Of a stretch of DNA of 64,000 nt, positions 25,159 through 44,196 are shown in pieces; position 1 is the first letter of the stretch, and every line of letters begins with the position of its first letter. The translations under genes were made by a program, and so were the position numbers. The notes beneath the pieces are model-generated. The model was not told the origin of the DNA and searched no databases. It saw only the letters and a list, made by a program, of their open reading frames with translations. Source of the DNA: Rhodothermales bacterium (GTDB lineage: Bacteria > Bacteroidota > Rhodothermia > Rhodothermales > VXPQ01); the NCBI GenBank assembly GCA_951812345.1, contig OX638295.1, positions 814,759 to 878,758 on the forward strand, given 5' to 3'.

Positions 25159-25455
25159 CTATGGTTTGAGTTTATCGTCCACAGCTTTCAAAAAGGTCTT
25201 ACACACCTTGAGCAATCGGTTGGTTGCCTCAATCATTTCGTCTCTTTGGCGAGGGGTTCGGTTGCGATGTTCTTGAGAAAAATCGATATCCATTTCATGG
25301 ATGATCTCATTTCTTATTCGAAAAACTTCCTTCAATTTATTTGGCTCTTTGGAAATGATGTTGGATTTAATGTCGAAGTACGAAGCGATTTTGAATAGCT
25401 CGTCTGCGGATAGAGGTGGTTCGGGTTGATTGGACAGATTTCGGCGGAATTTAAG
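25159..25455 (-). pseudogene. C-terminal fragment of a low-GC HEPN-like gene split by IS3
   Basis: 'FRIRNEIIHEMD' contains an Rx4H motif (25297-25314). The ORF runs out of the IS left end. Confidence 0.55.
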
Positions 25456-25502
25456 GTGTACTGTTGCGACCTTGTTCCGACGCAATCAACCAGAAGAGAC
25501 CC

Positions 25503-25793
25503 ATGTCAAGACGCCCACGCAGAACCCATAGTCCTTCGTTCAAGGCGAAGGTAGCCCTCGCCGCCGTGCGCGGCGACAGCACGCTGGCCGAACTCGCCGA
25601 ACGTTTCGAGGTGCACCCGAACCAGATACAATCGTGGAAGAAGCAGCTCACAGAGAGCGCCGAGGAGGCGTTCGTTCGAAGCCGCAACGTTCCCGATGAA
25701 CGCGACAGGAAGATCGAGGCGCTTCACGCGAAGATCGGAGAGTTGTCGATGGAGAAGGATTTTTTATCGAAGGCGCTCGGACACGACCGTTAG
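25503..25793 (+). CDS. IS3 OrfA (HTH transposase subunit)
   Basis: '[44 protein letters not shown]' followed by a leucine-zipper-like tail. Confidence 0.85.
25760..25766 (+). promoter_or_regulatory. Candidate -1 programmed frameshift heptamer T TTT TTA
   Basis: In the orfA frame this reads 'gaT TTT TTA'. The -1 frame is open from here into orfB ('[42 protein letters not shown]'). Confidence 0.5.
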
Positions 25794-25807
25794 CCGAGCG
25801 CCGCGCC

Positions 25808-26635
25808 ATGATAGCGCGCACGCATCGCTTGCCGGTCGTTCGCCAGTGCAGACTGGTCGAACTGAGCCGTTCTACGGCCTACTACCGTCCCCGAGAGGAG
25901 AGCGAAGAGAACCTTGCCGTCATGAAGGAGATCGACCGGCTCTACATGGAGCGTCCCACGAGCGGATCGCGCACGATAAAGAGCAAGCTCCAGGCAAAAG
26001 GCGTTTGCATCGCCAGAAGCCGAATCGTTCGTTTGATGCGCCTTATGGGCTTTGGGGCCATCTACCCGAAGCGCCGCACGTCGTCTCCGGGGCAGGGACA
26101 CAAGATTTACCCTTATCTGCTCAGAAGTCTCAAGGTGACAAGGCCTCGTCAGGTCTATGCGGCGGACATTACGTACATCCCTATGGCGAAAGGCTTTCTC
26201 TATCTCGTGGCCGTGATCGACTGGTACAGCCGCAAGGTGCTTGCCCACCGGCTCTCGAACACGATGGACGCAGCCTTTTGCGTCGAAGCGACGGAAGAGG
26301 CCATTGTTCGCTACGGAGCGCCCGAGGTGTTCAACACGGACCAGGGAGCGCAGTTTACCTCCGAGGCGTTTACCGGAGCGCTCAAGGCGCACGGGGTACG
26401 TATCTCCATGGACGGCAAGGGCCGCTGGCTGGACAACGTGTACGTGGAGCGCCTATGGCGCAGCCTCAAACAGGAAGAAGTCTACCGGCGCGCCTACGAC
26501 ACGGTGGCCGAGGCCAGGAAGGGAATCGCCGATTACCTGCGCTACTTCAACGAAGAGCGTCCGCACCAGGGACTTGACAATAGAACGCCCGACGATGTAT
26601 TCTACAAACGAAAACCGCTGAACCGGGCGGCATAG
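25808..26635 (+). CDS. IS3 OrfB (DDE integrase-core transposase; probably made as an OrfAB fusion)
   Basis: 'VYAADITYIPMAKGFLYLVAVIDWYSRKV', 'VFNTDQGAQFTS', 'DNVYVERLWRSLKQEEVY'. Confidence 0.85.
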   Translation: MIARTHRLPVVRQCRLVELSRSTAYYRPREESEENLAVMKEIDRLYMERPTSGSRTIKSKLQAKGVCIARSRIVRLMRLMGFGAIYPKRRTSSPGQGHKIYPYLLRSLKVTRPRQVYAADITYIPMAKGFLYLVAVIDWYSRKVLAHRLSNTMDAAFCVEATEEAIVRYGAPEVFNTDQGAQFTSEAFTGALKAHGVRISMDGKGRWLDNVYVERLWRSLKQEEVYRRAYDTVAEARKGIADYLRYFNEERPHQGLDNRTPDDVFYKRKPLNRAA

Positions 26636-26652
26636 CCCGGTGCGGCAGTACA

Positions 26653-27122
26653 CTTAAAATCGCCGGAAAAACTGTCCAGTTTTTCCGGACCATTTCTGAT
26701 TGCAGGCTTTTGGCAGTCAAATCATTTACCCACATGGTGATCATCCGGTCAATCGGATTCTCGGCAACGAGAACGTCTGCCATGATTTTGTAATCAGGTT
26801 GCTCACCCTGCTTGATCTTGCGCTCCACGAATTTTTCAAGAAAGATATCGTGTATTGCAGGGTCATTCTTAATAGCGGTGGGGAGCGCGTCCTTTACAAG
26901 ATGTTTTATCATTGAATCCAGGCCAGCGCTGGCGAATACGAGCATTGCCCGCAGGAGGTCTTGCTCCGGCCTACTAGGCTGACCCGGGCTTCTACCCTTG
27001 GAAAATATTTTCAGGAACGATTCCGCCGTTTCATGCGCATATTTCAGCACGAGCCAGGCATTTTTACAATCGTCAGATTTTGGGGCAGGAGGAACTGCAT
27101 CCAGTGTTGGTTTTGCCGCCAT
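26653..27122 (-). pseudogene. N-terminal fragment of the HEPN-like gene split by IS3
   Basis: 'EQDLLRAMLVFASAGLDSMIKHLVKDALP' is a helical pattern seen in several HEPN families. The ORF reads through into the IS right end. Low GC. Confidence 0.55.
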
Positions 27123-27125
27123 GCA

Positions 27126-27440
27126 TCAAACCTCGATCTCGATATCGTATGCAGCGGCGGGAGGGGCCGAGGCTTCTGCACGGTCCGGAGCGCCCGGGTA
27201 GCCTGGATAGCCGGGATTTTCCAAGCGTCCGGGGTATCCCCGATATTCGTGATTTGAGAATCGATACAGCCGATCTCCGAGGTAGATCGTGCCCAGATAT
27301 TCGCCGCTGGGATCTACGGCCTCTTCATCGTTCCAGGGAAACCACCCGAGCCATTCTCCCATGCGGGCGAACAGGTGTTTTCCCTTGCGGAAGGCGATCC
27401 ATTCGCCTGCCGAATCGAACAGATACTGAACTTCCTCCAT
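27126..27440 (-). CDS. Small beta-hairpin-repeat protein ('4-fold beta flower'-like) with a GYPG-rich tail
   Basis: 'YLFDSAGEWIAFRKGKHLFARMGEWLGWFPWNDEEAVDPSGEYLGTIYLGDRLYRF' shows repeated G-(E)W/Y-aromatic hairpins. The stop lies 3 nt before the HEPN-like start. The start was moved to the ATG at 27440. Confidence 0.55.
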   Translation of the reverse strand: MEEVQYLFDSAGEWIAFRKGKHLFARMGEWLGWFPWNDEEAVDPSGEYLGTIYLGDRLYRFSNHEYRGYPGRLENPGYPGYPGAPDRAEASAPPAAAYDIEIEV

Positions 27441-27849
27441 GGTAGTCGACTCCGTATGCCCGGGATGCTGGACCGTTGCAAAGTCGGGGCTGCCTGTTGC
27501 GAGAACGGATGTCTCTATGCCAGAGTTGTTGGCGGCCCGATGTTTTTGAAGCCGGGTCGGCACAAGATGTTTCCGATACGGGGATTGGCTACAGCAAAGA
27601 AGGGAAACGCCCCGTGCCTTGTGCAAGCTGTGCGCTGCGTTCATGAAGAACATGGCTGACAAGTCCGTTATTGTGATTTTTTATTCCATGAGCGGAGGTG
27701 CATCCGCGGGTTGATCGCGGATTTCAACGGGATCCGTATTTCAGACACCCTGTTCGGCCGGATATAACCTTGCTGAGAAAACGAATATGCGTCGCATCTC
27801 GGCGCGTACTTCGGCGTCGCGTTGTACACTTGCATGTTTTTCTTGAAAT

Positions 27850-27901: not shown

Positions 27902-28234
27902 ATGAAATCCAATGCGAATCATACCTTGCCGCGCGCAGCTCGGATAAGCCTCGTCAAATTGGGCGAGGACATCGCCGTGGCCCGCAGGAAACGCCGTATC
28001 TCGACCGTCTCCATGGCGGAGCGCGCCTTTATCAGCCGGGGGACGCTCTACAAGGTGGAACGAGGCGATCCGACGGTCTCCATGGGCATTTACGCCACAG
28101 TGCTCGCCATTCTCGGGCTTGTCGAGAAACTCGGCGATGTGGCCGACCGCCGGGACGACATCCTGGGGCTGGATATCGAAGAAGATCGCCTGCCAGGGAG
28201 GATCGTGTCTTCCGGTCGCAAGGAACGCTCATGA
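27902..28234 (+). CDS. hipB: XRE-family HTH antitoxin (HipB-like)
   Basis: 'RRKRRISTVSMAERAFISRGTLYKVERGD' is an HTH. There is a 4-nt overlap with hipA. Confidence 0.8.
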   Translation: MKSNANHTLPRAARISLVKLGEDIAVARRKRRISTVSMAERAFISRGTLYKVERGDPTVSMGIYATVLAILGLVEKLGDVADRRDDILGLDIEEDRLPGRIVSSGRKERS

Positions 28235-29448
28235 ACGACACGATCGAGGTGCATATCGACTGCGGCGAGCGTACGTGCCTGGTAGGGAGGTGCCGCTATT
28301 TCGCCAGGCGCGGAAGACAAAGTTCGGTATTCGAATATGCAAACGAGTGGCTGGACCGCCCGGACGCTTTCGCCATCGATCCGGCGAATCTTCCACTGCA
28401 TACCGGCCCGTTCTACGCTTCGTCGGAAAAATCGGCGTTGCCGGGCGCTCTGCGCGATACGGCCCCCGACCGCTGGGGCCGGTTGCTTGTTCAGCGAGCC
28501 CTTCGCAAGCACGGGCAGGCGCGCACCCTGTCCGAAATCGATTACCTGCTTGCCCTCAATGACCGAACGCGCATGGGCGCCCTGCGCTACCGACGCGAGG
28601 GAGAAGACGTTTTTTGTCATGACGCGGCTGTCTGGCGCGTACCGCCCATTATCCGGTTGCCCGCGTTGCTGAACGCCGCCGACGCCATTCATAGCGACGC
28701 CGAGGCAGCGGAAGACCTGAGATTATTGTTGTATGAGGGATCGCCTCTCGGCGGCGCGCGCCCCAAATCGGTGGTAGAGGACAAAGACGGCTCGCTTTCC
28801 ATCGCAAAGTTTCCCAAGCCCGACGACATGCGCAGTATTCCGCATGGGGAAGTGCTGGCCATGACGCTGGCCCGCGAGGCCGGACTGAAGGTTTCTTACG
28901 CTCGCCTGGAGGATGTCGCTGGCCAGCCGGTTGCGCTCATAAAACGGTTCGATCGTCGCGGCCGCCGACGCATTCCGTTTTTGTCGGCGATGAGCCTGTT
29001 GGGGCTTCATGACGGCGACGTAGCTGCATACACCGACATTGCCGAGTGTATTCGCACCTGGTCCAGCGCTCCAACCGAAGATCTGCATGAACTGTGGCGG
29101 CGGATCGTATTCAACATATTGGCTGCTAATCTCGACGATCATTTGCGCAATCACGGGTTCCTGTACGACCGGGACGGCACATGGCGCCTGGCGCCGGCCT
29201 ATGACCTCAATCCGGTCCCGATCGAGGAAAAAGCACGGGAACTGACTACCTGGATTTCCGAGGAGGGCCCGGAAGCCGATTTGGATCAGGCGCGCAGGGC
29301 CGCGCCGTATTTTGCATTGAAGAGCGACCGGGCGGATACGATTATTTCCGGGATGTCGGAAGTTCTGAAAGATTGGCGAAACGTTGCGCGGAAGCTGGGT
29401 ATGAGCGCGCCGGATATCGCTGCATACGCCTCGGCGTTTGGGGAATAG
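28231..29448 (+). CDS. hipA: HipA-family serine/threonine kinase toxin
   Basis: 'GGARPK', 'IAKFP', 'ANLDDHLRNHGFLY' and 'LAPAYDLNP' are HipA_C hallmarks. Confidence 0.9.
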   Translation: MNDTIEVHIDCGERTCLVGRCRYFARRGRQSSVFEYANEWLDRPDAFAIDPANLPLHTGPFYASSEKSALPGALRDTAPDRWGRLLVQRALRKHGQARTLSEIDYLLALNDRTRMGALRYRREGEDVFCHDAAVWRVPPIIRLPALLNAADAIHSDAEAAEDLRLLLYEGSPLGGARPKSVVEDKDGSLSIAKFPKPDDMRSIPHGEVLAMTLAREAGLKVSYARLEDVAGQPVALIKRFDRRGRRRIPFLSAMSLLGLHDGDVAAYTDIAECIRTWSSAPTEDLHELWRRIVFNILAANLDDHLRNHGFLYDRDGTWRLAPAYDLNPVPIEEKARELTTWISEEGPEADLDQARRAAPYFALKSDRADTIISGMSEVLKDWRNVARKLGMSAPDIAAYASAFGE

Positions 29449-29502: not shown

Positions 29503-29763
29503 CTACCCGAGAGACGAGCTATCTGCGCCGAAAAGCCGTCCTTCGATCCGGCCTAACCGGGAATTGATTGCGCTGATGTCCTTGTTGAGGTCCTTGCGCA
29601 GGTCCTGAATATCCTTATTGAGGTCCTTGCGCAGGTCCTGCATATCCTGGTTCAGGTCCTTACGGATATGCAAGGTGCTGTACAGCAAAAAGCCGAGAAT
29701 AACGGGCAACGACAGGGAAGCCATTGCTACGATAGCGGACGTGATGGTTTCGGACAGGTTCAT
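29503..29763 (-). CDS. Small membrane protein with an N-terminal TM helix and 11-residue repeats (paralog of 43882-44196)
   Basis: 'MNLSETITSAIVAMASLSLPVILGFLLY' TM helix, then 'DLRKDLNKDIQ DLRKDLNKDIS' encoded by 33-bp DNA repeats. The conserved end is 'INSRLGRIEGRLFGAD'. Confidence 0.6.
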   Translation of the reverse strand: MNLSETITSAIVAMASLSLPVILGFLLYSTLHIRKDLNQDMQDLRKDLNKDIQDLRKDLNKDISAINSRLGRIEGRLFGADSSSLG

Positions 29764-29961
29764 GATTACTTTTTGCGATGCGGTTGGAAAGGTGCAATGC
29801 AGGCTCCGACCGCTATACGAAATATACGGGATAGGGGCAGGTCTGTTCGGGAGGGGGCGCAGTTTTTGCATTTTTTGGCATGCAATCGGGCCTGACTTAT
29901 CCGAGTTTGCCACCCATGCCTTTGGCCGGTCGATCACGTATTTCCGGGGCGCCCGGCATGT

Positions 29962-30360
29962 TTAGACACTCCGTTCCCCCGGATATAACCTTTCTTTCCA
30001 GGGATTGACCGTTTCGACGTCGAGGCCGTTGAAATTTCCCGTGTTCCGTGTTGCAATGGCGAGGTCGTGCGCTCTCGCCGTTCCTGCAATCAACGCATCG
30101 CCGAGGTGCAGGACACGCCCGCATCGCCGTGCATCCGCCCGGAATTTCGCGGCCCACTGCCCTTCTTCGTATGCGACAGGGAGGATGCGATTCGCGTACG
30201 TTTCTATGAAATCCGCCAGCATGGCCCGCAGATTTTTGCGTCGGCGCCCCTTGGGCAATAACCGCAAGCCAAACTCCAGTTCGTGCAGGACGATGGTCGA
30301 AACCCACAACTCCGAGTGTCCCGCCAGAAATTCGATAACCTGCGATTCCGGAGTATCCTT
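29962..30360 (-). pseudogene. PIN-domain (VapC-like) toxin relic lacking its N-terminal acidic motif, start codon and antitoxin
   Basis: 'WVSTIVLHELEFGL', 'HLGDALIAGTARAHDLAIATRNTGNF' and 'VNPW' match the VapC C-terminal two thirds. No D-T-N-like start segment is present. Confidence 0.6.
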
Positions 30361-30417
30361 ATCTTCCGTTTGCTGTTTCGCCTCGCCGTTCTGCCCGCAC
30401 CTTCCAGGAATTCCGAT

Positions 30418-30963
30418 TTGTCCGGGAACCGTCCCATAGACCCCGCACTCGTCAGGCAAGCGCGGGACGGCGACGAAGCGGCGTTCGAGGCGATCGTCCG
30501 ACTGCTCGATCCCATGCTGCGCGCATGGTTCGTATCGCGGATCGGGCAACGGGCGGAGGTGGACGATCTGGTGCAGAATACGCTCCTCCGTCTCTACCGG
30601 AGTCTGCCGGATCTGCATGACCCGGACCGGTTACAGGCTTTTGTCATGAAAGCGGCGGTGTTCGAAACCCAGGATTACTACCGGGGACGGTACGGCTCCA
30701 GAGAGCGTCTCGCCGGCCCCGATGTATTATCGGCATGGAGTGAAGCCGCCCCGGAGGCGGGCATGCGCATCGACGCCGAGCGGGCGCTGGGTCTCCTGAG
30801 CGAGAAGGCCCGCACAATTCTGGAAATGCGCGAATACGGCTATCGGTATGCGGAAATCGCGCGGTCGCTCGACATGACGGAAGCCGCCGTGAAGATGCAG
30901 GTGAAGCGAGCGCTCCGCAAACTGCGCAAAGCGCTTGGAGAATCCGGCGGCGGGAACGCATAA
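30418..30963 (+). CDS. ECF (sigma-70 family, group 4) sigma factor
   Basis: 'ARDGDEAAFEAIV', 'DDLVQNTLLRLYRS', 'YGYRYAEIARSLDMTEAAVKMQVKRA'. There is no in-frame ATG. The TTG at 30418 is proposed as the start, while the track ORF begins at the GTG at 30283. Confidence 0.75.
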   Translation: MSGNRPIDPALVRQARDGDEAAFEAIVRLLDPMLRAWFVSRIGQRAEVDDLVQNTLLRLYRSLPDLHDPDRLQAFVMKAAVFETQDYYRGRYGSRERLAGPDVLSAWSEAAPEAGMRIDAERALGLLSEKARTILEMREYGYRYAEIARSLDMTEAAVKMQVKRALRKLRKALGESGGGNA

Positions 30964-42968: not shown

Positions 42969-43457
42969 TCAGCATATCCCGCCCACCGGATAAAACAAAC
43001 GCCTTTTTGCGCCCGGCAGTCCAATAAAACCGAAGTGCTCGTAAAACGCCTGGGCCTGCTCGTCTTTCGCATCCACCACAACGGCGTAAACGGCAAGGAC
43101 TGCACTTGCCCGAACCACCCGTTGCAAGGCATCCGCCAAAAGCGCTGAACCCAATCCCTGTCCGCACCAGCGCCGATCTACCGCCAGACGTCCAAGTAAT
43201 GCTACAGGCACCGGATAGCGAGGCAAGCGTTTTGCTTTCTTTTCCGGTAATGCGTTTCGTTCGATACTTCCTGCACTGAGCGTATAAAATCCCGCGATTT
43301 CGTTGCTTTCCTCGGGCAAAGCCACGAACACTCGAGTAACGTTTCGTCGCTCATCCTGGGATGCCTGTCGGCGGATGTACCGGTCAAGCGCTTCGGATCC
43401 GCAATCGAACTGTGACCGATCATGCGATCCTTGCAAGGCCTCTATGGAGAACATCAC
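42969..43457 (-). CDS. GNAT-family acetyltransferase toxin (TacT/KacT-like)
   Basis: 'FDCGSEALDRYI', 'LLGRLAVDRRWCGQGLGSALLADAL'. There is a 4-nt overlap with the upstream DUF1778-like gene. Confidence 0.8.
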   Translation of the reverse strand: MMFSIEALQGSHDRSQFDCGSEALDRYIRRQASQDERRNVTRVFVALPEESNEIAGFYTLSAGSIERNALPEKKAKRLPRYPVPVALLGRLAVDRRWCGQGLGSALLADALQRVVRASAVLAVYAVVVDAKDEQAQAFYEHFGFIGLPGAKRRLFYPVGGIC

Positions 43458-43771
43458 CTCTCCGTCGCCTTCACAATCAAGCGATCATGGCTGGCAAAGG
43501 CCTTGCGCAGTGCTGCGTTGGGTTCGGGAGGATTGACGAGTGCTGCGGCAAATATCTCCCAGTCCTGATCGCTCAGCACGAGCCGCTCTCGTTCGCGTAT
43601 CAGATCATCGGCGGCTTCGAGCGCATTGTTCACGACAAAGGCCGATACCGTCATATTCGCCAGTGTCGCTGCACGCTCCAGCATGCGTTTTGCTTCAGGA
43701 TCGATACGAACCTGTACCCGTTCCGTTTTTGTTTGCGAGGCCGCCATTATCCCGCTCGTTATTTTGGTCAC
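43454..43771 (-). CDS. DUF1778 (TacA-like) ribbon-helix-helix antitoxin
   Basis: 'RVQVRIDPEAKRMLERAATLANMTVSAFVVNNALEAADDLI'. The start is the GTG at 43771 or the ATG at 43747. Confidence 0.8.
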   Translation of the reverse strand: MTKITSGIMAASQTKTERVQVRIDPEAKRMLERAATLANMTVSAFVVNNALEAADDLIRERERLVLSDQDWEIFAAALVNPPEPNAALRKAFASHDRLIVKATER

Positions 43772-43881: not shown

Positions 43882-44196
43882 CTACCTCGCAACAGCCGGG
43901 AAGTCTGCGCCGAAAAGATGCCCCTCGATCCGCCCGAGGCGGGCGTTGATCTCGCTCAACTCCTTGTAGACCTCTGCCCGGAGATCGCTGATATCCACTC
44001 TGATGCTGGCGATTTCTCCCCGGACCTCTGCCCGGAGTTCGCTGATTTCTCCCCGGACCTCTCCCCGAAGATCGCCGATTTGTCCCTGGAGGTCGGCGAT
44101 CGTCCTGTGCAAGTCGGCGAGCGACTTGATCATCCAGCCGATCAGGCCGGCGAGCGCTATGCCCACGGACGATATGAGAACGAGGTCGAAATCCAT
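43882..44196 (-). CDS. Small membrane protein with an N-terminal TM helix and 11-residue repeats (paralog of 29503-29763)
   Basis: 'MDFDLVLISSVGIALAGLIGWMI' TM helix. Repeats 'DLRGEVRGEIS ELRAEVRGEIA ... DLRAEVYKELS'. The conserved end is 'INARLGRIEGHLFGAD'. Confidence 0.6.
   Translation of the reverse strand: MDFDLVLISSVGIALAGLIGWMIKSLADLHRTIADLQGQIGDLRGEVRGEISELRAEVRGEIASIRVDISDLRAEVYKELSEINARLGRIEGHLFGADFPAVAR

What the first reader, a model, noticed from the sequence alone, without database searches (positions are those of the whole stretch)
29503..29763. Unrecognised family of small N-terminally anchored membrane proteins built from 33-bp (11-residue) repeats, present as two paralogs next to TA loci
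This 86-aa protein has one N-terminal TM helix and then near-perfect hendecad repeats ('DLRKDLNKDIQ' / 'DLRKDLNKDIS', preceded by 'HIRKDLNQDMQ'). It ends in 'INSRLGRIEGRLFGAD'. A 104-aa paralog at 43882-44196 has the same layout (TM, 'DLRGEVRGEIS/ELRAEVRGEIA/DLRAEVYKELS') and a near-identical end, 'INARLGRIEGHLFGAD'. The ends are also conserved at DNA level ('cggatcga.gg.c..cttttcggcgcaga'). The repeat region has diverged, which points to selection on the TM and C-terminal motif and to a variable-length coiled stalk. Both copies lie in accessory DNA directly beside toxin genes: HipA and a PIN relic here, TacA/TacT at the other locus. I cannot assign a family.
Basis: seen in the sequence. Interest (0 to 1): 0.6.

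Follow-up and report, generated by a model that had tools for sequence, protein, structure and literature searches.

The report
Membrane-anchored coiled-coil stalk of variable length
Two small genes encode an unannotated family of membrane-anchored helical stalk proteins, found only in uncultured Rhodothermales, whose length changes in 11-residue steps; the toxin-antitoxin genes beside them are variable insertions, not partners.

Summary
Windows 29503-29763 (-) and 43882-44196 (-) encode 86-aa and 104-aa paralogs. Each has an N-terminal transmembrane helix, 33-bp/11-residue repeats and an invariant C-terminal NxRLGRIEGxLF motif. The genes are real: dN/dS is 0.10-0.15, and orthologs occur in at least 12 species-level Rhodothermales MAGs. 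No Pfam, NCBIfam, PADLOC or PHROG model reaches its threshold.

Repeat number runs from 0 to about 6, and different lineages have duplicated different units. The spacing between the membrane helix and the cap stays at 0 or 4 modulo 11, which keeps one hydrophobic seam continuous.

AlphaFold2 models one continuous helix (residues 3-79). Hydrophobic periodicity is exactly 11/3. RLGRIE matches the published R-hxxhE trimerisation motif. Charge distribution predicts an N-out/C-in topology. My best reading is a parallel, probably trimeric, coiled-coil stalk on the cytoplasmic face of the membrane. Its biological role is unknown.

The toxin-antitoxin link is not supported. The small genes keep fixed syntenic positions, while hipBA, tacAT and vapBC are present, absent or decayed in related genomes.

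A looser class of similar N-anchored and C-anchored (DUF1640-like) hendecad proteins is widespread and unnamed.

Verdict: a real, tidy, moderately interesting new family, not a new kind of system.

The parts
29503..29763 (-). Gene A, 86 aa: single-pass membrane-anchored hendecad stalk protein
   Evidence: ORF confirmed. An identical protein is found on 5 contigs. 65 homologs were retrieved. dN/dS is 0.10-0.15. AlphaFold2 models a single helix over residues 3-79, pLDDT 84.8.
29674..29748 (-). N-terminal transmembrane helix of A (about residues 6-30, TITSAIVAMASLSLPVILGFLLYST). It follows a 5-residue acidic N-tail.
   Evidence: In 65/65 family members with a detectable N-terminal membrane helix, Lys/Arg are commoner after the helix than before it. 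The N-tail averages 0.05 K/R; the next 15 residues average 4.7 K/R. G24 is invariant across A and B. dN/dS is 0.15.
29566..29673 (-). Hendecad stalk of A (residues 31-66). The 33-bp tandem array lies at 29579-29661.
   Evidence: TRF: period 33, 2.5 copies, 90% matches. Adjacent units are 31/33 identical. The hydrophobic periodicity peak is 3.67, reached by 0 of 1000 shuffles.
29527..29565 (-). Conserved C-terminal cap of A, NSRLGRIEGRLFG. It has heptad spacing and contains R-L-G-R-I-E, which fits R-hxxhE.
   Evidence: Invariant columns N67, R69, L70, G71, R72, E74, G75, L77, F78. dN/dS is 0.10. Motif definition comes from PMC3653964.
29503..29526 (-). Short variable Ser/Pro-rich tail of A plus the stop codon
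   Evidence: dN/dS is 0.39. pLDDT is below 50 for residues 84-86.
29821..29829 (-). CCGTATATT, a promoter-like element about 58 nt upstream of the A start codon
   Evidence: Conserved in the aligned upstream regions of all 13 distinct A-type copies, and duplicated together with tandem copies. The window holds 2 matches against 0.24 expected. Function is inferred, not shown.
43882..44196 (-). Gene B, 104 aa: paralog with the same architecture
   Evidence: ORF confirmed. Homologs P0066-P0069. Orthologs sit next to leuS in L018, L017 and L024.
44010..44090 (-). 33-bp tandem array in the B stalk (DLRGEVRGEIS / ELRAEVRGEIA)
   Evidence: TRF: period 33, 2.5 copies, 85% matches. Adjacent units are 29/33 identical.
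43909..43947 (-). Conserved C-terminal cap of B, NARLGRIEGHLFG
27902..29448 (+). CONTEXT ONLY: hipB (27902-28234) and hipA (28231-29448), convergent with A. Judged to be a variable insertion, not a partner.
   Evidence: Pfam HipA_C E = 2e-49 and Couple_hipA. The cassette is absent from the same slot in L006, L009, L013 and L025-27.
29965..30360 (-). CONTEXT ONLY: 5'-truncated vapC (PIN) relic upstream of A
   Evidence: 86% identical to residues 16-147 of the intact L025 VapC. No vapB was found. PIN domain E = 3e-10.
42969..43771 (-). CONTEXT ONLY: tacA (43454-43771) and tacT-like GNAT (42969-43457), downstream of B
   Evidence: Pfam TacA1 E = 2.5e-25 and Acetyltransf_1. The cassette is absent between B and the next gene in L018 and L024.

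Best explanation
A and B are real, expressed-type genes for a lineage-restricted family of very small single-pass membrane proteins.

- A short acidic N-tail is predicted to be translocated. One transmembrane helix anchors the protein.
- The rest of the chain continues as a single unbroken alpha-helix on the cytoplasmic side.
- That helix is made of 11-residue (hendecad) repeats. Their three hydrophobic residues form one straight seam, flanked by an Asp stripe on one side and an Arg/Lys stripe on the other. Identical chains anchored side by side can therefore zip into a parallel, nearly untwisted coiled coil held by inter-helix salt bridges.
- The invariant C-terminal heptad cap NxRLGRIEGxLF carries the R-hxxhE trimerisation motif. 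It most likely sets the register and the oligomeric state (a trimer) and presents a short flexible tail.
- Unequal recombination or slippage between near-identical 33-bp units adds or removes whole hendecads (about 1.6 nm each). Length changes, but the seam keeps its phase.
- The protein probably works as a passive tether, spacer or scaffold on the inner face of the membrane, with the conserved membrane helix and the cap as its two functional ends.
- It is not a component of the adjacent toxin-antitoxin modules.

Shown: coding status, repeat variation, periodicity, motif conservation and independence from the TA genes. Inferred: topology, trimer state and scaffold role.
For: Coding and conservation:
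- 65 + 23 homologs were retrieved.
- 15 genome loci were confirmed, all in Rhodothermales MAGs.
- dN/dS over 18 distinct A genes: membrane helix 0.15, first repeat 0.13, cap 0.10, tail 0.39.

Length variation:
- Protein lengths include 60, 71, 75, 86, 97, 108 and 119 aa.
- A-type stalk lengths are 11, 22, 26, 37, 44, 48, 59 and 70. B-type lengths of 55, 59 and 88 fit the same rule, always 0 or 4 modulo 11.
- Adjacent 33-nt units are 31-33/33 identical, and the duplicated unit differs between lineages.

Helix and seam:
- AlphaFold2 gives one helix over residues 3-79, pLDDT 84.8.
- The hydrophobic moment peaks at 3.67 residues, with 0 of 1000 shuffles reaching it.
- The 11/3 helical wheel reads D/D/D | L/L/M-I | R(99%)/N/Q | K(91%)/Q.

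Trimer cue:
- R69-L70-G71-R72-I73-E74 is invariant or nearly so and fits R-hxxhE, with h(a) = ILVM and h(d) = LIV. That motif specifies parallel three-stranded coiled coils (PMC3653964).
- The best PDB sequence matches are trimeric fibres. Reovirus sigma-1 tail ISTIESRLGEMDNRLVG aligns to the cap at E = 1e-3, followed by a phage short tail fibre.

Topology:
- The N-tail has no Lys/Arg and the membrane helix is followed by 4.7 K/R in 15 residues, in 65/65 members. The same bias holds in 41/47 of the wider N-anchored class.

Independence from TA genes.
Against: - No experiment or multimer model was available. [quoted passage not shown]
- The topology rests only on the positive-inside rule, and the C-terminal flank is also rich in acidic residues (3.3 D/E in 15 residues).
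- No interaction partner, phenotype or expression data exist.
- The 'scaffold/spacer' role is an argument from architecture.
- The membrane helix is conserved more strongly than a plain anchor would need, which hints at a specific function not captured here.
- Tandem paralogs of different length, and repeated proximity to defence or TA genes, remain unexplained.
Confidence: 0.55

Rival explanations
1. The 11-mer region is an in-plane amphipathic helix. It would lie on the membrane surface or coat lipids and proteins, as apolipoprotein, alpha-synuclein, LEA or YtxH/DUF948-type stress proteins do. On this view it acts as a membrane stabiliser rather than an oligomeric stalk.
For: - Pfam Apolipoprotein A1/A4/E is the most consistent sub-threshold hit: E = 2e-4 for A and down to 1e-9 for the 119-aa homolog P0010.
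- ApoE and ApoA-I chains dominate the weak PDB matches.
- DUF948 gives weak hits that include the N-terminal membrane helix.
- 11/3 periodicity is what surface-bound 11-mer helices use.
Against: - All scores are far below the curated cut-offs (21-38 bits against 90; 14-18 against 37).
- Only 3 of 11 positions are hydrophobic, about a 98 degree arc.
- One edge of the seam is a near-invariant Asp stripe, which is unfavourable at an anionic bacterial membrane. This differs from class-A helices, which carry Lys/Arg on both edges.
- The invariant heptad cap with R-hxxhE has no role in this model.
- The strict 0-or-4 modulo 11 phasing to the membrane helix fits a continuous rod better.
Confidence: 0.12
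2. The topology is the reverse (N-in/C-out). The stalk would then be periplasmic, acting like FtsB/FtsL/DivIC, an i-spanin, or an Lpp-like spacer whose repeat number sets a periplasmic distance.
For: - Weak hits to DivIC (E = 1e-3, P0071), FtsL (0.21), the Rz-like spanin phrog_739 (0.01-0.5) and TolA_bind_tri.
- Length variation in about 1.6 nm steps would make sense for a periplasmic ruler.
- The net charge after the membrane helix is close to neutral.
Against: - The positive-inside count favours C-in in 65/65 members. The N-tail is 5 residues, acidic and free of Lys/Arg, which is typical of translocated N-tails.
- The related tail-anchored (DUF1640-like) proteins with the same repeats must keep their stalk in the cytoplasm.
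- All these family hits are far below threshold.
Confidence: 0.12
3. The small proteins are functionally tied to conflict systems. They could be a membrane effector, sensor or third component of the neighbouring TA or defence modules, or a small membrane toxin or superinfection-exclusion factor. This would explain their position in variable islands and their rapid repeat and copy-number evolution.
For: Defence-type neighbours recur:
- vapBC upstream (L025-27) and hipBA downstream (window, L007, L008, L016);
- tacAT downstream of B (window, L017);
- a Type ISP restriction enzyme downstream (L022, L023) and a DNA methylase upstream (L011);
- a Bflower-HEPN pair nearby.

Tandem duplication and fast length change are common in conflict genes.
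Against: - Each TA cassette is dispensable for keeping the small gene in the same slot.
- vapC has decayed while A stays intact under purifying selection.
- Three or more contexts have no defence neighbour.
- PADLOC gives nothing for A, and only weak chance-level hits (E about 0.01) for B.
- The neighbours are four unrelated TA or restriction-modification types, which argues for a shared insertion-tolerant location rather than a shared mechanism.
Confidence: 0.1
4. The ORFs are spurious readings of non-coding tandem repeats.
For: The ORFs are short, contain DNA tandem repeats and are unannotated in most sources.
Against: - dN/dS is 0.10-0.15 in the claimed frame.
- All length changes are in frame, in multiples of 33 or 87 bp.
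- Substitutions are conservative.
- The promoter-like motif upstream is conserved.
- Orthologs occur in at least 12 species-level genomes.
Confidence: 0.01

Closest known systems
DUF1640 / CCDC90-like family (Pfam PF07798; MCUR1, CCDC90B and their prokaryotic relatives)
   Same: - Small single-pass membrane proteins whose bulk is a non-heptad coiled-coil stalk on the cytoplasmic or matrix side.
- Prokaryotic members retrieved here (P0070, P0077) carry E[VI]RGE[IM]S[ED]LR hendecads 46% identical to the B stalk.
- hhalign of the two alignments gives 94.6% probability over 51 stalk columns.
- In one other lineage (L030), an N-anchored protein of the wider class (cap RVGRIEGHLFG) overlaps a DUF1640-like gene by 4 nt.
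   Different: - The membrane helix is at the opposite end: N-terminal here, C-terminal tail anchor there.
- There is no N-terminal head domain and no [aliphatic]-A-T-K-x-[DE] beta-layer motif.
- PF07798 scores 10.6-20.3 bits against a cut-off of 33.5.
- The NxRLGRIEGxLF cap is absent from DUF1640.
- The stalk similarity lies in a low-complexity repeat and may be convergent.
Parallel trimeric coiled coils carrying the R-hxxhE trimerisation motif (coronin-1, ccbeta, engineered GCN4 and cortexillin; reovirus sigma-1 tail as the nearest sequence match)
   Same: - R-L-G-R-I-E is invariant and fits the published motif exactly.
- The sigma-1 tail segment ISTIESRLGEMDNRLVG aligns to the cap.
   Different: - Those are heptad coiled coils in soluble or viral proteins.
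- Here the motif caps a hendecad stalk anchored in a membrane.
- The oligomeric state was not measured.
- The PDB similarity is borderline (E = 1e-3) and not evidence of homology.
Apolipoprotein A-I/A-IV/E type 11/22-residue amphipathic repeats (PF01442)
   Same: 11-residue periodicity, high charge content, long uninterrupted helix.
   Different: - Scores are far below the cut-off.
- The hydrophobic seam is narrow (3/11), with Asp on one edge.
- There is a membrane anchor and a conserved heptad cap.
- There are no Pro-punctuated 22-mers.
Small N-anchored bacterial coiled-coil proteins (PspB, ZapG/YhcB, DUF948, FtsB/DivIC)
   Same: Size, a single N-terminal membrane helix followed by a coiled coil, and (for PspB and YhcB, from general knowledge) an N-out/C-in topology.
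   Different: - No significant sequence match: ZapG-like E = 0.025, DUF948 E = 0.002-0.07, DivIC E = 1e-3, all below cut-offs.
- None of these families is known for hendecad repeat-number variation.

Membership tests
PF07798 CCDC90-like / DUF1640 | Pfam HMM score at or above the gathering cut-off (33.5 bits) | tested here: not met
   A scores 10.6 bits, B 18.5 bits and P0067 20.3 bits. The true members P0070 and P0077 score 46-47 bits.
PF07798 CCDC90-like / DUF1640 | N-terminal head domain followed by the beta-layer motif [aliphatic]-A-T-K-[polar]-[DE] at the start of the stalk | tested here: not met
   The membrane helix starts at residue 6, so no head domain exists. No ATK motif is present in A or B. 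Motif definition from PMC4786415.
PF07798 CCDC90-like / DUF1640 | C-terminal transmembrane anchor | tested here: not met
   The hydrophobic segment is N-terminal in all 65 family members in which one was detected.
PF07798 CCDC90-like / DUF1640 | Non-heptad (hendecad-rich) coiled-coil stalk | tested here: met
   Periodicity is 3.67. hhalign matches stalk columns only, at 94.6% probability.
PF01442 Apolipoprotein A1/A4/E | Pfam HMM score at or above 90 bits | tested here: not met
   Scores are 21.3 bits (A), 15.8 (B) and at most 38.4 (P0010).
PF01442 Apolipoprotein A1/A4/E | Class-A amphipathic helix: broad hydrophobic face with basic residues at both polar/non-polar interfaces | tested here: not met
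   The wheel shows 3/11 hydrophobic positions, an Asp stripe on one edge and an Arg stripe on the other.
Parallel trimeric coiled coil with R-hxxhE motif | Presence of Arg-[ILVM]-x-x-[LIV]-Glu in register with the hydrophobic core | tested here: met
   R69-L70-G71-R72-I73-E74 is invariant or at least 90% conserved. The core spacing around it is 3-4-3-4. The motif also occurs in 24/47 wider-class N-anchored proteins.
Parallel trimeric coiled coil with R-hxxhE motif | Three-stranded oligomeric state | not testable with these tools
   Only monomer AlphaFold2 was available. Custom multi-chain constructs are not accepted.
Type II toxin-antitoxin module component (HipBA, VapBC, TacAT) | Obligate co-occurrence and co-orientation with the toxin/antitoxin pair across genomes | tested here: not met
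   A occurs without hipBA in L006, L009, L013 and L025-27. B occurs without tacAT in L018 and L024. vapC has decayed next to an intact A.
Known anti-phage defence proteins (PADLOC-DB) | Match to a PADLOC model | tested here: not met
   No hit for A. B gives only chance-level hits at E of about 0.01 or weaker.
Variable-number tandem-repeat (length-polymorphic) coding locus | Near-identical in-frame DNA repeats whose copy number differs between related genomes | tested here: met
   Units are 31-33/33 identical. There are 0 to about 6 hendecads across orthologs and paralogs.
Sec signal peptide / secreted protein | Positively charged n-region, a 7-15-residue h-region and an AxA cleavage site | tested here: not met
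   The n-region MNLSE / MDFD is acidic with no K/R. The hydrophobic run is about 23-28 residues. No dedicated predictor was available.

The most novel reading that the evidence does not exclude
The strict family would be one visible tip of a widespread, unnamed prokaryotic system. In that system, N-anchored (this class) and C-anchored (DUF1640-like) hendecad trimers share one repeat type, sometimes sit in one operon (L030), and form a membrane-face scaffold or ruler. Its reach would be tuned genetically by adding or removing 11-residue units. A variant of this reading: the proteins are membrane sensors or effectors that defence and TA cassettes are recruited next to.
Probability: 0.12. Interest if true: 0.6.

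Novelty: new variant of a known kind. Interest (0 to 1): 0.3.

Why it matters
If the structural reading is right, this family is a natural allelic series. The membrane anchor and the trimerisation cap stay fixed while 0 to about 6 hendecads are inserted between them. That makes it a clean model for how non-heptad coiled coils keep register and for how bacteria tune a molecular length by repeat recombination.

It also flags a large, unnamed class of small membrane-anchored hendecad proteins. The profile search gave 1046 hits at E <= 1e-3, many of them repeat-only matches. This class is missing from Pfam and NCBIfam and may relate to DUF1640/MCUR1-type scaffolds.

For genome annotation there are two practical messages. 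These are genuine genes. Their adjacency to toxin genes should not be read as function.

Tried and rejected
- Family libraries. Pfam, NCBIfam, PADLOC and PHROGs scans of A, B and their longer homologs gave only sub-threshold coiled-coil noise. The newer Pfam accessions listed in the precomputed hits resolve to weak or faint coiled-coil matches: FAM81B and NNF2_middle.
- Promoter and terminator scans. The sigma-70 and terminator consensus scans returned nothing above shuffle expectation, and the one 'terminator' lies inside the coding sequence.
- PDB sequence search. It gave only borderline matches to trimeric viral fibres and apolipoproteins.
- Cluster look-up. Ten wider-class proteins returned no informative names.
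- DNA- or RNA-level element at the shared 3' end. Rejected: synonymous positions vary among orthologs (CTT/CTC, TTC/TTT, GGC/GGT, GCA/GCG), so the identity follows from protein conservation plus close relatedness.
- DUF1640-type partner in the window. None was found; only the B repeats cross-match.
- hipBA insertion and A-gene duplication. The flanking copies in L007 and L008 are better explained by insertion between pre-existing tandem copies, as seen in L006.
- Literature. Searches for hendecad membrane proteins and for DUF1640 found background only. No paper describes this family.
Full report
**1. Observation**

- A: 29503-29763, 86 aa.
- B: 43882-44196, 104 aa.

Supporting measurements:
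- Tandem Repeats Finder gives a 33-bp period with 2.5 copies in each gene: 29579-29661 at 90% matches and 44010-44090 at 85%.
- A and B align at 40% identity over the C-terminal 60 residues, E = 4e-14.
- A six-frame regex scan finds R[LIVM]xx[LIVM]EGx[LIVMF] only in these two ORFs across the 64 kb window.
- The quoted 3' DNA identity is correct.

Small corrections:
- A 5-8-residue tail follows ...LFGAD.
- The two membrane helices share only one invariant Gly.
- Part of the B stalk repeats as 11+11+7 = 29 residues.

**2. Are they genes?**

Yes.
- A homolog search with A returned 65 proteins. The search with B returned 23, of which about eight are true family members.
- A pattern scan of 185,579 species genomes for N[SA]RLGRIEG gave 15 confirmed loci. 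All are in uncultured 'Rhodothermales bacterium' MAGs.
- The window has 60% GC.
- Nei-Gojobori dN/dS over 18 distinct A-type genes:

| Segment | dN/dS |
|---|---|
| Membrane helix | 0.15 |
| First repeat | 0.13 |
| C-terminal motif | 0.10 |
| Terminal tail | 0.39 |

- All length differences are in frame.
- A 9-nt element, CCGTATATT, lies about 58 nt upstream of the start in every aligned A-type copy, and it is duplicated together with tandem copies.

**3. Anatomy**

*Conserved ends.* The 17-sequence A+B alignment has these invariant columns: G24 in the membrane helix, then N67, R69, L70, G71, R72, E74, G75, L77 and F78.

*Stalk length.* Counted from the end of the membrane helix to the Asn of the cap:
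- A-type: 11, 22, 26, 37, 44, 48, 59 or 70 residues.
- B-type: 55, 59 or 88 residues.
- All of these are 0 or 4 modulo 11. The one exception is the disrupted P0069.
- A 4-residue step is a coiled-coil 'stutter'. The hydrophobic seam therefore stays continuous in every variant.

*Seam in A.* The core residues are I33, L37, M41, L44, L48, I52, L55, L59, I63, I66, L70, I73 and L77. The spacing is 4-4-3 repeated three times, then 4-3-4.
- So three hendecads pass into a heptad cap.
- The hydrophobic moment peaks at exactly 3.67 residues (11/3), and 0 of 1000 shuffles reach it.

*Helical wheel.* On an 11/3 wheel, the pooled A-type repeats separate into four stripes:
- acidic: D/S, D 89%, D 86%;
- hydrophobic: L/I, L/M, M/I;
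- polar: R 99%, N/H, Q;
- basic: K 91%, Q/K/R.

*Model.* AlphaFold2, run as a monomer with the 17-sequence alignment, gives one uninterrupted helix over residues 3-79 at pLDDT 84.8.

**4. Repeat dynamics**

- Adjacent 33-nt units are 31/33 identical in the window A gene.
- They are 33/33 identical in the second L008 copy and in two L023 paralogs, 32/33 in the L018 B ortholog and 31/33 in L014.
- The duplicated peptide differs between lineages. These are therefore recent, independent expansions.
- Tandem gene copies with different repeat numbers are common:
  - 75+86 aa (L006, L011);
  - 86+97+119 aa (L028);
  - 110+88+110 aa (L023).
- Decayed copies also exist (P0065 in L016), so the gene is not essential.

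**5. Topology and oligomer (inference)**

*Topology.*
- The N-tail averages 5 residues, with 0.05 Lys/Arg and 1.1 Asp/Glu.
- The 15 residues after the membrane helix carry 4.7 Lys/Arg. This holds in 65/65 family members and in 41/47 of the wider N-anchored class.
- By the positive-inside rule this predicts N-out/C-in, which puts the stalk in the cytoplasm.
- The hydrophobic run is too long, and the n-region too acidic, for a cleaved signal peptide.

*Oligomer.*
- The cap RLGRIE fits the published trimerisation motif R-hxxhE (h(a) = I/L/V/M, h(d) = L/I/V).
- That motif specifies parallel three-stranded coiled coils, though it also occurs in some dimers (PMC3653964).
- Anchoring at the same end forces a parallel arrangement.
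- With Asp on one edge of the seam and Arg on the other, neighbouring identical helices can form salt bridges.
- The nearest PDB sequence matches are trimeric fibres. The reovirus sigma-1 tail aligns ISTIESRLGEMDNRLVG to the cap at E = 1e-3. A phage short tail fibre and apolipoproteins follow.
- None of these matches is strong enough to claim homology.

**6. The toxin-antitoxin question**

tblastn of the window ORFs against the related loci, plus the annotated contigs, show that both small genes keep fixed positions.

*Gene A.* It lies between the ECF sigma/FecR/TonB-receptor genes and the AP-endonuclease/short-chain dehydrogenase genes. The slot holds:

| Loci | Content of the slot |
|---|---|
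| L025-27 | vapB-vapC-A |
| L009, L013 | vapC relic, then A |
| L006 | vapC relic, A, A, Bflower, HEPN |
| L007, L008 | A, hipA, hipB, A |
| L016 | A remnant, hipA, hipB |
| Window | vapC relic, A, hipA, hipB, Bflower, IS-disrupted HEPN |

- The window vapC lacks its first 15 codons and has no vapB.

*Gene B.* It lies next to leuS.
- L018 and L024 have no tacAT.
- The window and L017 do.

*More distant members.* Their neighbours include:
- heme A/O synthase genes, an ABC transporter and a Type ISP restriction enzyme;
- SbcCD, radical-SAM and TonB-receptor genes;
- a DNA methylase;
- a GDSL lipase;
- a T9SS cargo protein and a methyltransferase.

*Reading.*
- Four unrelated TA or restriction-modification types come and go next to a stable small gene.
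- The simplest explanation is that the small genes sit in insertion-tolerant intergenic spots.
- I could not run a formal enrichment test.

**7. Relation to known families**

- Nothing reaches a curated threshold.
- The exhaustive profile search of 1.84 billion representatives gave 1046 hits at E <= 1e-3. Most align only to the repeat region.

*N-anchored hits.*
- Many share hendecads plus a cap built on R-h-x-x-h-E-G. Examples are RVARIEGRL, RLGRVEGHL, RVGRIEGHLFG and RISRLEGML.
- The R-hxxhE motif lies in the last 40 residues in 24/47 of them.
- They come from uncultured lineages and carry no informative names.

*C-anchored hits.*
- They include genuine DUF1640/CCDC90-like proteins: PF07798 scores 46-47 bits, and the VATKDD beta-layer motif is present.
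- The existence of the Adlakha et al. 2019 description of this family is confirmed through the reference list of PMC7279490.

*Comparison.*
- The B repeats are 46% identical to the P0070 stalk.
- hhalign gives 94.6% probability over stalk columns only.
- A and B fail three of the four defining DUF1640 features: HMM score, head domain with beta-layer, and C-terminal anchor.
- They are therefore not members. They resemble DUF1640 proteins in how the stalk is built.
- In one other lineage (L030), an N-anchored protein overlaps a DUF1640-like gene by 4 nt and is followed by a second N-anchored paralog.
- That is a single observation. It suggests the two architectures may work together.

**8. Mechanism and confidence**

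*Best explanation (0.55).*
- A cytoplasmic-face, membrane-anchored, parallel and probably trimeric hendecad coiled coil.
- Recombination between 33-bp repeats changes its length by whole hendecads.
- The conserved membrane helix and the R-hxxhE cap are the functional ends.
- The role is most likely tethering, spacing or scaffolding.

*Shown:* coding status, repeat variation, phase rule, periodicity, motif invariance, independence from TA cassettes.

*Inferred:* topology, trimer state, role.

*Rivals:*
- surface-bound amphipathic helix (0.12);
- periplasmic stalk (0.12);
- conflict-system component (0.10);
- spurious ORF (0.01).

**9. Verdict**

- The finding is real and was described carefully.
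- The proposed TA association is a by-product of genome location.
- The protein is a new, lineage-restricted family within a familiar kind: small membrane-anchored coiled coils with non-heptad repeats.
- It offers an unusually clean natural series of stalk lengths.
- It is of moderate interest to coiled-coil and small-protein specialists, and low interest otherwise.

Noticed in passing
window 25159-27122: An IS3-type transposase (orfA/orfB, about 25464-26635, + strand) interrupts a HEPN_RiboL-PSP-like gene. The N-terminal part is at 26547-27122 (-) and the C-terminal part at 25159-25485 (-). The same gene is an intact 224-aa ORF in near-identical contigs L002-L004.
   Followed up: partly
window 26547-27662 (-): A '4-fold beta flower' protein (PF21784, 24.2 bits against a cut-off of 25) is directly followed by the HEPN gene. 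The pair is conserved in L006 and L007, and its GC content is lower (39-52%) than the 60% window average. It may be a two-gene conflict module.
   Followed up: no
window 29965-30360 (-); L025 4153-4874: vapC (PIN) in the window lacks its first 15 codons, including the N-terminal catalytic Asp region, and has no vapB. An intact vapB-vapC pair sits at the same place, directly upstream of the A gene, in L025-L027.
   Followed up: yes
L007 2505-4972; L008 7001-9748; L006 6520-7261: In two related genomes the hipBA cassette lies between two A-type copies. In a third genome the two copies are adjacent with no hipBA. This is consistent with insertion between tandem duplicates, and recombination between the flanking copies could then excise the cassette.
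   Followed up: partly
L030 5001-5988: In an unrelated lineage, an N-anchored hendecad protein (cap RVGRIEGHLFG) overlaps a DUF1640-like tail-anchored protein by 4 nt. A second N-anchored paralog follows. This may be an operon that combines both anchor orientations.
   Followed up: partly
L022 5624-5827; L023 5623-5826: A conserved 67-aa ORF (MxKTPKSPPEGIYIL.AVHGKTCWAPVRF...) precedes the tandem A-type arrays in two genomes. It has no Pfam hit.
   Followed up: no
window 29880-29899 (-), upstream of gene A: A short palindrome, TTGCATgccaaaaaATGCAA, lies about 120-135 nt upstream of the A start. It is present in some orthologs (L006, L008, L013) but not in all. It could be an operator-like site.
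   Followed up: no
window 30283-30963 (+) against 29962-30618 (-): The ECF sigma-factor ORF and the long PIN-containing ORF overlap on opposite strands. Public gene callers disagree between contigs, calling either a 226-aa sigma or a 105-aa sigma plus a 218-aa PIN. The 218-aa PIN call is probably an artefactual N-terminal extension of the vapC relic.
   Followed up: partly
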